A stretch of DNA of 47,808 nt from a virus. Taxonomy: Duplodnaviria; Heunggongvirae; Uroviricota; Caudoviricetes. The notes below the pieces were generated by a model, which was not told the origin of the DNA, made no database searches, and saw only the letters and a program-made list of their open reading frames with translations. Shown here piece by piece: positions 39,355 to 40,065 of this stretch; position 1 is the first letter of the stretch; each line of letters starts with the position of its first letter. The stretch is taken from positions 1 to 47,808 of IMG/VR virus record IMGVR_UViG_2778261394_000006; one strand, 5' to 3'. Position numbers and translations under genes: made by a program.

Positions 39355-39400
39355 ATATTAGGCGACGCCTAACATAAATGTCAATAGGCTATGCCTAATG
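39355..39400 (-). promoter_or_regulatory. PR-like promoter TTGACA-N18-TAATAT with operator palindrome TTAGGCgacGCCTAA in the spacer
   Basis: Near-consensus sigma70 elements on the minus strand about 25 nt upstream of ydaS; palindrome at 39358-39372. Confidence 0.55.
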
Positions 39401-39451
39401 CGATAAAGATAGGGATTGCCTAATGCAATGAGCATAGGAGAATATTAAGCA

Positions 39452-39928
39452 ATGCTTAGTGGTAAAGACTTAGGCCGAGCGATAGAGCAGGCCATTAACA
39501 AAAAAATCGCATCGGGATCCGTCAAATCAAAGGCGGAGGTCGCACGCCACTTCAAAATCCAACCACCATCAATTTATGACTGGATTAAGAAAGGCTCCAT
39601 AAGTAAAGATAAACTTCCAGAATTATGGCGTTTCTTTTCTGATGTTGTTGGTCCAGAGCATTGGGGGCTTAACGAATACCCCATACCAACCCCCACCAAT
39701 TCAGATACAAAAAGTGAACTTTTAGATATAAACAACCTTTATCAAGCAGCCTCTGATGAAATAAGAGCGATTGTAGCTTTCCTGTTATCTGGAAATGCTA
39801 CAGAACCAGATTGGGTTGACCACGATGTTCGCGCCTACATAGCAGCGATGGAAATGAAAGTGGGTAAGTATCTGAAAGCTCTAGAATCTGAACGGAAAAG
39901 CCAGAACATCACAAAAACTGGAACTTAA
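39452..39928 (+). CDS. racR: Prophage repressor RacR
   Basis: 158 aa matching recalled RacR (MLSGKDLGRAIEQAINKKIASGSVKSKAEVARHF...). Confidence 0.9.
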   Translation: MLSGKDLGRAIEQAINKKIASGSVKSKAEVARHFKIQPPSIYDWIKKGSISKDKLPELWRFFSDVVGPEHWGLNEYPIPTPTNSDTKSELLDINNLYQAASDEIRAIVAFLLSGNATEPDWVDHDVRAYIAAMEMKVGKYLKALESERKSQNITKTGT

Positions 39929-40020
39929 ACTTATATGGTCTGACGGAAAACTCCTGGATTCCGTTATTTAACCCCCCATCACTTTCTCCTGTCGCCATCA
40001 CCTATTAGGTTACGCCCAAA

Positions 40021-40065
40021 ACATTAGGCATAGCCTATTGACAATCAATTAGGCATTACCTATAG
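40021..40065 (+). promoter_or_regulatory. PL-like promoter TTGACA-N17-TATAGT with an inverted copy of the 22-bp operator segment
   Basis: 40021-40042 is the exact reverse complement of 39379-39400; contains TAGGCatAGCCTA palindrome. Confidence 0.55.

What the first reader, a model, noticed from the sequence alone, without database searches (positions are those of the whole stretch)
39355..40065. Immunity region: racR flanked by mirrored 22-bp operator segments inside divergent near-consensus promoters
The 22-bp segment tgtcaataggctatgcctaatg (39379-39400) recurs as an exact reverse complement at 40021-40042 on the other side of racR. Each copy supplies a TTGACA -35 box facing outward: on the minus strand TTGACA-N18-TAATAT toward ydaS, and on the plus strand TTGACA-N17-TATAGT toward ydaF/ydaG/kilR/recET. 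Palindromes built on TAGGC half-sites (TTAGGCgacGCCTAA; TAGGCtatGCCTA) overlap the promoter spacers. This is a lambda-like OL/OR layout, with the repressor controlling both the cro-like operon and the operon carrying toxic early genes.
Basis: seen in the sequence. Interest (0 to 1): 0.5.

Follow-up and report, generated by a model that had tools for sequence, protein, structure and literature searches.

The report
Rac prophage repressor's two operator sets
The repressor gene racR of a Rac-type prophage is flanked by two clusters of RacR binding sites, each overlapping a strong outward-facing promoter as in phage lambda; the ydaS-side cluster is already proven by experiment, while the ydaG-side cluster appears undescribed but is unsurprising.

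Summary
It is the longest inverted repeat in the 47.8-kb window. Both promoters exist: TTGACA-N18-TAATAT on the minus strand and TTGACA-N17-TATAGT on the plus strand. All five TAGGC-N3-GCCTA sites with at most one mismatch lie in these two clusters (0.67 expected).

The ydaS-side half is published for K-12: PydaS start site, -10 mutagenesis, RacR EMSA and footprint, and this same operator consensus. I found no paper describing the ydaG-side cluster.

Comparative evidence for the ydaG-side cluster is strong.
- Twenty of 62 loci with RacR-type repressors, from gamma- and beta-proteobacteria, carry a distal operator pair downstream of the repressor gene.
- All 20 share one design: operator, TTGACA, N5-6, operator, TAnnnT (1 of 3100 shuffles).
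- Three heteroimmune E. coli prophages share the transcript leader from the predicted +1, but upstream each has its own palindromes, matching those in its own cro-repressor spacer.
- In E. coli, racR and the ydaG-side unit each occur in 1086 genomes.
- Published RNA-seq shows ydaG, ydaF, kilR and recET derepressed when RacR is depleted.

Verdict: a lambda-like OR/OL layout. It is half known, half a new but expected member of a known kind. Binding and promoter activity at the OL-like cluster are untested.

The parts
39355..39384 (-). PydaS, the PR analogue: -35 TTGACA (39384-39379), 18-nt spacer, -10 TAATAT (39360-39355), reading toward ydaS-ydaT
   Evidence: Promoter scan. In K-12 the start site was mapped and the same TAATAT box mutagenised (PMC9638921). 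The sequence is identical in K-12 across both hexamers.
39359..39371 (.). Operator TAGGCGACGCCTA (perfect), in the PydaS spacer and overlapping the -10 by 2 nt. Functionally like lambda OR1.
   Evidence: Published as RacR operator O1, protected in footprints at the lowest RacR concentration.
39385..39397 (.). Operator TAGGCTATGCCTA (perfect), abutting the PydaS -35. It forms the core of the left arm of the 22-nt mirrored repeat (39379-39400).
   Evidence: K-12 differs only in the N3 spacer.
39410..39422 (.). Operator TAGGGATTGCCTA (1 mismatch). It contains TTGCCT (39416-39421), the likely -35 of the leaderless racR promoter, whose published -10 GAGAAT lies at 39438-39443.
   Evidence: The equivalent site TAGGAATTGCCTA is near-invariant, spacer included, in relatives. 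PracR3 is from PMC9638921. The -35 assignment is my inference.
39446..39458 (.). Weak operator TAAGCAATGCTTA (2 mismatches) spanning the racR ATG at 39452
   Evidence: The -6 site TAGGCAATGCTTA is present in most of the 62 relatives. Published as the operator overlapping the start codon.
39452..39928 (+). racR, 158 aa. The N-terminal domain is a lambda-CI-like 5-helix HTH; the C-terminal domain is helical and is not an S24 peptidase.
40006..40018 (.). Degenerate third element TAGGTTACGCCCA (2 mismatches). Only the left half-site TATTAGG is conserved among E. coli variants, and it sits 19 bp rather than 25 bp from the next site.
   Evidence: Its status as an operator is doubtful.
40025..40037 (.). 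OL-type operator TAGGCATAGCCTA (perfect), abutting the -35 of the ydaG-side promoter. It forms the core of the right arm of the mirrored repeat (40022-40043).
   Evidence: Conserved in 20 of 62 related loci as operator immediately followed by TTGACA.
40038..40066 (+). PL-analogue promoter TTGACA (40038-43), N17, TATAGT (40061-66), with predicted +1 near 40073, reading toward ydaG, ydaF and onward toward kilR-recET
   Evidence: 11 of 12 matches. The -35 carries 1.4-2.0 bits in relatives, and a TAnnnT -10 recurs. Homology with heteroimmune prophages starts at 40072/40073. No experimental start-site mapping was found.
40050..40062 (.). OL-type operator TAGGCATTACCTA (1 mismatch) in the promoter spacer, overlapping the -10 by 2 nt. 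It lies 25 bp from the 40025 site.
40073..40235 (+). Untranslated leader of the predicted ydaG transcript. Its first 40 nt are C-rich (20 C, 6 G). It is shared with heteroimmune prophages.
   Evidence: No Rfam family matches. The fold z-score is -1.6.

Best explanation
The region is the immunity switch of a Rac-type lambdoid prophage. RacR dimers recognise 13-15-bp palindromes, (T/A)TAGGC-N3-GCCTA(T/A). On each side of racR, two such operators spaced 25-26 bp centre to centre bracket a near-consensus sigma-70 promoter. One operator abuts the -35. The other fills the spacer and overlaps the -10. Bound RacR should therefore exclude RNA polymerase from both promoters. The left promoter, PydaS, is the PR analogue and drives the cro-like ydaS and the cII-like ydaT. 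The right promoter is the PL analogue and drives ydaG, ydaF and, by read-through, the kilR-racC-recET-ralR-xis-int arm. Two further sites, at 39410 and 39446, cover the -35 and the leaderless start of racR itself and give autorepression. What is shown by others in K-12: RacR binding, the footprint, the start site and repression at the ydaS side; octamer formation; and derepression of both arms on RacR depletion. What is shown here: the right-hand operator pair plus promoter is a conserved, specificity-matched part of the immunity module. What is inferred: direct RacR occupancy of the right-hand pair, its promoter activity, cooperative pairwise binding, and a possible OL-OR loop of about 640 bp.
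For: Sequence: searches give the exact repeat, both promoters, and a motif confined to the two clusters with no shuffle out of 100 matching. Literature for the ydaS side: three palindromic repeats, three EMSA complexes, ChIP-qPCR and a reporter (PMC5700373); primer-extension start site, -10 mutagenesis, DNase I footprint and the same consensus (PMC9638921); a RacR octamer and 'four inverted repeats' (PMC11014345). Evidence for the ydaG side: a distal operator pair downstream of the repressor stop in 20 of 62 loci from Escherichia, Mixta, Morganella, Proteus, Erwinia, Achromobacter, Pigmentiphaga, Sphaerotilus, Bordetella, Lysobacter and others. The pairs are spaced 24-25 bp and always show the operator-TTGACA-N5/6-operator-TAnnnT design facing away from the repressor, against 1 of 3100 shuffled flanks. 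Information content is about 2 bits in half-sites and the -35, about 0.5 in N3 and about 0.2 in flanks. The same design occurs in the isolated Klebsiella phage KpF5 and in the most diverged E. coli copy. Three heteroimmune prophages share the leader from the predicted +1 but carry their own palindromes at both positions. The 76-bp unit and racR are each found in 1086 E. coli genomes, while the leader is in 3810. ydaG, ydaF, kilR, racC and recET rise 40- to more than 100-fold when racR is silenced by C protein or by a CRISPRi roadblock. That rules out read-through from the racR promoter. The RacR N-terminal domain has the lambda-CI fold, and the same domain is fused to S24 peptidase domains in relatives with the same operators.
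Against: No binding assay, footprint, ChIP or start-site mapping exists for the 40006-40066 cluster in anything I could search. The promoter-proximal right-hand operator has a mismatch at a conserved G, and the third element is only a half-site. The published interpretation assigns the octamer to four sites in the ydaS-racR spacer alone. A racR-IGR-ydaS deletion that leaves this promoter and kilR in place is viable. So either the derepressed promoter is not very harmful or its transcript seldom reaches kilR. sieB lies antisense, and Rho-dependent termination is reported to silence kilR. Derepression of the left arm in RNA-seq could be partly indirect, through YdaS, YdaT or excision. YdaS-family Cro proteins co-occur with the RacR N-terminal domain in almost all loci, so comparative data cannot say which of the two proteins the distal sites serve.
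Confidence: 0.85

Rival explanations
1. The right-hand cluster is mainly an auxiliary anchor for long-range DNA looping. A RacR octamer bridges it to the ydaS-side sites to tighten PydaS repression and racR autoregulation. On this view it is not primarily the operator of a working promoter.
For: RacR is an octamer by size exclusion (PMC11014345). Two operators on each side would accommodate four dimers. The two clusters are only about 640 bp apart. In lambda, OL assists OR in this way (established knowledge).
Against: An 11-of-12 promoter is embedded in the pair. Its -35 and TAnnnT -10 are conserved with the operators across taxa. Downstream genes are derepressed when racR is silenced. The two roles are compatible rather than exclusive.
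Confidence: 0.35
2. The mirrored repeat is a non-functional by-product of recombination or gene conversion between the two sides of racR. Left-arm derepression after RacR loss is then indirect, caused by YdaS, YdaT, excision or other promoters.
For: The exact 22-nt identity in this strain suggests recent copying. YdaS is reported to promote excision and YdaT is a transcription factor. Strains lacking racR-IGR-ydaS but keeping this site are viable.
Against: The repeat is not exact in K-12 or O157. The differences fall in N3 spacers and linkers, while the half-sites, -35 and -10 are kept. The architecture is conserved in distant genera whose flanks are unrelated. Operator type switches in step with the repressor in heteroimmune prophages. 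No other TAGGC-N3-GCCTA site with at most one mismatch exists in the 47.8-kb window to serve the left arm.
Confidence: 0.05
3. The right-hand palindromes act as the transcription terminator of racR.
For: The terminator scan flagged TAGGCTATGCCTA followed by ATGTTTTGGG.
Against: That call is on the minus strand, opposite to racR, with a 5-bp stem. The number of terminator-like hits equals the shuffle expectation (2 against 2.2). A separate hairpin at 39941-39966 directly after the racR stop is the better terminator candidate.
Confidence: 0.03

Closest known systems
Phage lambda immunity region (cI, cro, OR1-3/PR/PRM, OL1-3/PL)
   Same: The repressor and cro-like genes are divergent, with multiple palindromic operators between them. 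A second operator set sits beyond the repressor gene, at a promoter reading the same way as the repressor gene. Adjacent operators lie about 24-26 bp apart and overlap the -35 and -10. The repressor mRNA is leaderless. The N-terminal domain has the lambda-CI fold. The repressor forms an octamer (PMC11014345).
   Different: The RacR C-terminal domain is not an S24 peptidase, so no RecA-mediated cleavage is expected. The operators are 13-15 bp with a 3-nt spacer and have unrelated sequence. The ydaS side has four sites in E. coli, and the ydaG side has two plus a half-site. No rexAB-type genes lie between the repressor and the OL-like cluster (a 98-nt gap). No N homologue is recognised. YdaS reportedly does not repress racR (PMC9638921).
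CP-933P prophage of E. coli O157:H7: PaaR2 / YdaS / YdaT with PR933P, PRM933P and PL933P (PMC8630535)
   Same: It is a Rac-like lambdoid module with YdaS as Cro and YdaT as CII. A PL analogue with OL operators resembling the OR set was identified and shown by reporter assay to be regulated by the repressor. The repressor octamerises.
   Different: The repressor (PaaR2) and operator sequence (GTTTAGTAA-type repeats) are different. A toxin-antitoxin pair sits between the repressor and PL. For Rac itself the equivalent promoter and operators have not been reported.
Qin prophage DicA / DicC / dicBp (PMC10448788)
   Same: dicBp is described as the PL analogue, with operators like those between dicA and dicC. 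A Qin-like prophage (L004, ydfABC-dicB) shares the transcribed leader with this window from the predicted +1.
   Different: The repressor specificity is different. The K-12 Qin copy itself was not detected by megablast with this query (one place in K-12).
Published RacR operators O1-O3 in the racR-ydaS spacer (PMC5700373, PMC9638921)
   Same: The consensus (T/A)TAGGC-n3-GCCTA(T/A) is identical, and these are the same sites as 39359-39458 here.
   Different: Those papers treat only the racR-ydaS spacer. The pair at 40025-40062 is not mentioned in any paper I could search.

Membership tests
Lambda-type immunity region (OR/OL switch) | Divergent repressor and cro-like genes separated by a spacer with several repressor operators overlapping both promoters | tested here: met
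   racR (+) and ydaS (-, P22_Cro/YdaS Pfam hits) are 123 bp apart, with four TAGGC-N3-GCCTA sites over PydaS and the racR start. Binding is shown in K-12 (PMC9638921).
Lambda-type immunity region (OR/OL switch) | A second operator cluster on the far side of the repressor gene, overlapping a promoter (PL) that reads away from it | tested here: met
   This is met at the sequence and comparative level only. Two operators bracket TTGACA-N17-TATAGT at 40025-40066. The design is conserved in 20 of 62 relatives. Function is untested.
Lambda-type immunity region (OR/OL switch) | Operators at both sites carry the same specificity, and that specificity changes together with the repressor (heteroimmunity) | tested here: met
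   L003, L004 and L005 each have different repressors and their own matched palindromes at both positions, while sharing the downstream leader.
Lambda-type immunity region (OR/OL switch) | Repressor with a Cro/C1-type helix-turn-helix N-terminal domain | tested here: met
Lambda-type immunity region (OR/OL switch) | Repressor C-terminal S24 (LexA-like) self-cleaving domain giving SOS induction | tested here: not met
   RacR has no Peptidase_S24 hit, and its C-terminal domain is all-helical. Relatives with the same N-terminal domain and operators do carry PF00717.
Lambda-type immunity region (OR/OL switch) | Three operators in each cluster | tested here: inconclusive
   The ydaS side has four sites in E. 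coli and three in other genera. The ydaG side has two good sites plus a degenerate half-site at 40006.
Lambda-type immunity region (OR/OL switch) | Cooperative binding and long-range OL-OR looping by a repressor octamer | not testable with these tools
   The octamer is reported from size exclusion only (PMC11014345). There are no looping data.
RacR operator family, (T/A)TAGGC-n3-GCCTA(T/A) | Inverted TAGGC half-sites with a 3-nt spacer, usually flanked by A/T | tested here: met
   Five sites have at most one mismatch, and all flanks are A/T. The consensus is from PMC9638921.
RacR operator family, (T/A)TAGGC-n3-GCCTA(T/A) | Bound by RacR protein | not testable with these tools
   Binding is shown in K-12 for the ydaS-side sites, which are nearly identical in sequence. 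It is not shown for 40025-40062.
Intrinsic terminator | G+C-rich hairpin followed by a U tract on the strand of the upstream gene | tested here: not met
   The scan hit at 40037-40025 is on the minus strand, has a 5-bp stem, and is no more than chance would give.

The most novel reading that the evidence does not exclude
The ydaG-side operator pair is the missing half of the RacR octamer's binding platform. On this reading, two dimers at 40025/40050 and two at 39359/39385 are joined by a DNA loop of about 640 bp. The tight silencing of ydaS and ydaT, and therefore the essentiality of racR, would depend on that loop rather than on the four sites in the racR-ydaS spacer alone, as currently proposed. 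The same two-plus-two geometry would hold for a whole family of CI-type repressors across beta- and gamma-proteobacteria. These share the RacR N-terminal domain but have swapped C-terminal domains, either S24 peptidase or a non-cleavable helical domain.
Probability: 0.35. Interest if true: 0.5.

Novelty: new member of a known kind. Interest (0 to 1): 0.35.

Why it matters
Recent papers state that the RacR regulon is 'not yet characterized in detail'. They attribute racR essentiality only to repression of ydaS and ydaT. A defined second operator and promoter gives a direct, testable route by which RacR controls ydaG, ydaF, kilR, recET, ralR and xis-int. It also offers another reading of the reported octamer, as OL-OR looping. 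In addition, one operator and promoter design is shared by RacR-type repressors in many genera, including SOS-cleavable versions. That makes Rac a tractable model for that family. None of this overturns the lambda paradigm; it fills in an expected piece.

Tried and rejected
- **Rfam searches.** I searched the whole window at gathering threshold and 39900-40600 at E<=1. Nothing matched in or near the feature, so the conserved leader is not a described RNA family.
- **Leader folding.** The z-score was -1.6, which is unconvincing.
- **Profile search of RacR against PDB sequences.** No meaningful hit. Only the fold search was informative.
- **Literature searches.** I looked for a described PL or OL of Rac using RacR+ydaG, RacR+kilR+promoter, sbcA+repressor and RacR+ChIP-seq. 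None was found. Older subscription papers on sbcA and recE expression, and databases such as EcoCyc and RegulonDB, could not be checked.
- **The Rho 'trac' paper (PMC4150792).** It describes a 210-nt untranslated region before racR. I could not reconcile this with the 123-bp spacer. Its sequence figure is an image, so I did not use it as evidence for or against the ydaG-side promoter.
This failed because the YdaS-type Cro co-occurs with the RacR N-terminal domain almost everywhere.
- **A third full OL operator at 40006-40018.** Rejected. The spacing is wrong (19 bp), and only one half-site is conserved.
- **The terminator reading of the palindromes.** Rejected.

Full report
**What is in the sequence**

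The window carries a Rac-type prophage. It is 97% identical to K-12 Rac over 39000-40515, and 99% identical to strain EC11.

The genes around the finding are:
- ydaT, 38587-39009, minus strand
- ydaS, 39032-39328, minus strand, with YdaS and P22_Cro Pfam hits
- racR, 39452-39928, plus strand
- ydaG, 40236-40370, plus strand
- ydaF, 40381-40536, plus strand
- sieB, 40538-41170, minus strand
- then, from ORF positions that parallel the K-12 annotation, kilR, recE and recT; Rfam places the RalA sRNA at 46074-46252

The exact 22-nt inverted repeat is real, at 39379-39400 and 40022-40043. It is the longest inverted repeat in the 47.8-kb window.

Both promoters are found by the scan:
- minus strand: TTGACA-N18-TAATAT, 39384-39355
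- plus strand: TTGACA-N17-TATAGT, 40038-40066

TAGGC-N3-GCCTA with at most one mismatch occurs five times in the window. All five sites lie in the two clusters (39359, 39385, 39410; 40025, 40050). The chance expectation is 0.67, and no shuffle out of 100 reached five. Two-mismatch sites lie at 39446, over the racR ATG, and at 40006.

**Anatomy**

The two sides are mirror images at the level of design, not only of the 22-mer. Read in the direction of transcription:
- ydaG side: CATTAGGCATAGCCTA-TTGACA-ATCAAT-TAGGCATTACCTA-TAGT
- ydaS side: CATTAGGCATAGCCTA-TTGACA-TTTATGT-TAGGCGTCGCCTA-ATAT

In each, one operator abuts the -35. The second fills the spacer, and its last two bases are the first two of the -10. 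The two operators are 25 or 26 bp apart. The 22-mer is therefore an operator plus the adjoining -35 hexamer plus three flanking bases.

In K-12 the match is 21 of 22, and the difference falls in the N3 spacer. In O157-type and more diverged E. coli copies, changes fall in N3 spacers and linkers. The half-sites, -35 and -10 are kept.

**What is already known**

The ydaS-side half has been worked out experimentally in K-12.
- Krishnamurthi et al. 2017 reported three palindromic repeats, three EMSA complexes, ChIP-qPCR enrichment and reporter repression (PMC5700373).
- Wisniewska et al. 2022 mapped the single ydaS start site. They abolished the promoter by mutating this same TAATAT box. They footprinted RacR and derived the consensus (T/A)TAGGC-n3-GCCTA(T/A). 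They also mapped a leaderless racR promoter with -10 GAGAAT, which is 39438-39443 here (PMC9638921).
- Gucwa et al. 2023 speak of four inverted repeats and showed by size exclusion that RacR is an octamer (PMC11014345).

None of these papers, nor the 2025 YdaT paper, mentions sites downstream of racR. [quoted passage not shown]

Three transcriptome studies report that ydaG, ydaF, kilR, ydaE, racC, recE, recT, ralR, xisR and intR rise 40- to more than 100-fold when racR is shut off by C protein or by CRISPRi. In those experiments racR transcription itself is blocked. The increase therefore cannot be read-through from the racR promoter. It needs a RacR-sensitive promoter downstream of racR, or an indirect route.

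**New comparative evidence for the ydaG-side cluster**

1. *Heteroimmune prophages.* Three E. coli prophages with unrelated repressors share the DNA from window position 40072/40073 onward: the leader, ydaG/ydaF or ydfA, then sieB/kilR or dicB. That position is 6-7 nt after the -10, which is the predicted +1. Upstream of it the three are unrelated to the window and to each other. Each has its own palindromes just upstream of the junction, and these match palindromes in its own cro-repressor spacer:
   - ET896: ATACCCATAGGTA type
   - AZ162: GGTAAC-N-GTTACC type
   - TUM10008: AGTACAT type

   Operator specificity therefore switches together at both positions, and the immunity module ends at the start of the leftward transcript.

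2. *Scan of one genome per species.* I scanned with a RacR alignment and obtained 62 loci, from Enterobacterales to Burkholderiales, Pseudomonas and Lysobacter. Most have TAGGC-N3-GCCTA sites at -66, -41 and -6 from the repressor ATG. Twenty have a distal pair downstream of the repressor stop, within the 2 kb fetched. The distal pairs sit 62 to 1679 nt beyond the stop and are spaced 24-25 bp. All show the operator-TTGACA-N5/6-operator-TAnnnT design and point away from the repressor. Only 1 of 3100 shuffled flanks gave such a pair.

3. *Information content.* It is about 2 bits in the half-sites and the -35, about 0.5 in N3, and about 0.1-0.4 in the flanks. In 16 loci a strict pattern search recovered the same design, mirrored, on the cro side.

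4. *An isolated phage.* Klebsiella phage KpF5 has the same layout.

5. *Co-occurrence in E. coli.* In 5426 complete E. coli genomes, racR (at least 80% covered) and the 76-bp ydaG-side unit are each found in 1086 genomes. The downstream leader is in 3810.

**The protein**

The N-terminal 75 residues are highly conserved among relatives, while the C-terminal domain varies. In Achromobacter, Pigmentiphaga, Bordetella, Pseudomonas, Lysobacter and Azoarcus loci, and in protein P0105, the same N-terminal domain is fused to a Peptidase_S24 domain. RacR is thus a CI-type DNA-binding domain whose self-cleaving domain has been replaced by a helical oligomerisation domain. Its operator and promoter design is that of the wider family.

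**Mechanism**

*Shown by others.* RacR binds the ydaS-side sites and represses PydaS and its own promoter.

*Supported here but not proven.* RacR also binds 40025-37 and 40050-62 and occludes a strong promoter that starts the ydaG-ydaF transcript near 40073.

*Inferred.* Binding is pairwise cooperative, given the 25-26 bp spacing typical of lambda operators. A loop of about 640 bp may form between the two pairs, held by the octamer. The site at 39410-22 contains TTGCCT, 16 nt upstream of the published -10 of the leaderless racR promoter. This would explain why this operator is nearly invariant, spacer included, across genera. That reading is my inference.

**Caveats**

- No direct assay exists for the ydaG-side cluster.
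- The third element, at 40006, is only a half-site.
- A racR-IGR-ydaS deletion that keeps this promoter and kilR is viable. sieB is antisense to the transcript, and Rho is reported to silence kilR. How far the transcript runs is therefore open.
- The C-rich start of the leader (20 C, 6 G in 40 nt) would suit Rho loading, but this is speculation.
- YdaS-type Cro proteins accompany the RacR N-terminal domain nearly everywhere. Comparative data alone cannot tell which protein uses the distal sites. By analogy with lambda and CP-933P, both may.

**Comparison and verdict**

The layout works like lambda OR/OL. It closely parallels CP-933P, where PL933P and its OL sites were shown experimentally (PMC8630535), and Qin dicBp (PMC10448788).

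It departs from lambda in four ways:
- the non-S24 C-terminal domain
- the operator sequence and length
- the site count: four at the ydaS side in E. coli, two plus a half-site at the ydaG side
- the absence of a recognisable N gene

The ydaS-side half of the finding is already known. The ydaG-side half is a new but expected member of a known kind. Interest is moderate to low for the paradigm. It is useful for Rac biology and for interpreting the RacR octamer.

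Noticed in passing
window 40073-40235: The untranslated leader downstream of the ydaG-side promoter is found in 3810 of 5426 complete E. coli genomes, including heteroimmune and Qin-like (ydfABC-dicB) prophages. Homology begins at the predicted +1. The first 40 nt are C-rich (20 C, 6 G), which is rut-like. No Rfam family matches, and the fold z-score is only -1.6.
   Followed up: partly
window 39941-39966: A hairpin lies directly after the racR stop codon (ACGGAA...TTCCGT, then UAUUU). It is kept in O157-type and more diverged copies, with a stem lengthened by a compensated insertion. 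It may be a weak racR terminator ahead of the OL-like cluster.
   Followed up: partly
L016, L017, L025, L030, L036, L046 (repressor genes starting at 2001 or 1385); protein P0105: The RacR N-terminal DNA-binding domain occurs fused to Peptidase_S24 (LexA/CI-type) C-terminal domains in beta- and gamma-proteobacterial prophages. These loci carry the same TAGGC-N3-GCCTA operators. RacR therefore looks like a domain-swapped, non-cleavable CI.
   Followed up: partly
L041 2601-3233, L036 2930-3973, L030 2740-4323, L071 3149-4303: In relatives, cargo genes sit between the repressor gene and the distal operator pair, the position of lambda rexAB. They include a ParE toxin with an HTH antitoxin, a P63C-domain protein, a tRNA_anti-like protein, and DUF450 in Klebsiella phage KpF5. 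The Rac window has only a 98-nt gap there.
   Followed up: partly
window 39410-39422 and the -41 sites in L010-L065: The operator at -41/-42 (TAGGAATTGCCTA) is almost invariant across genera, spacer and 'mismatch' included. It contains TTGCCT at the right distance to be the -35 of the published leaderless racR promoter.
   Followed up: partly
window 39355-39458 compared with L010-L067 upstream regions: Escherichia Rac has four operators in the racR-ydaS spacer (-93, -67, -42, -6). Other genera have three (-66, -41, -6). In Escherichia the ydaS promoter unit sits one operator further out.
   Followed up: partly
L008 (JARKOR010000130.1): A 5.2-kb contig binned as 'Candidatus Nanosynbacter' encodes a RacR 99% identical to the query RacR and carries the same five operator sequences at the same offsets as the E. 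coli loci L006/L007. This is almost certainly E. coli contamination of the MAG. L021, binned as an 'Alistipes' MAG, also carries a RacR-like N-terminal domain.
   Followed up: no
window 46074-46252 (-) and 32682-32857 (-): Rfam finds the RalA antitoxin sRNA (218 bits) and a sok antitoxin RNA (120 bits) elsewhere in the window.
   Followed up: no
L069 2477-3752: An E. coli genome carries a Klebsiella-type racR module with the three-operator spacer. An ISKpn26 lies just downstream, where the distal operator pair would be expected.
   Followed up: no
window 40538-41170 (-): The sieB reading frame is open for 210 codons here, against 162 annotated in K-12. The Pfam SieB match covers residues 62-174, so the difference is probably one of start-codon choice.
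   Followed up: no
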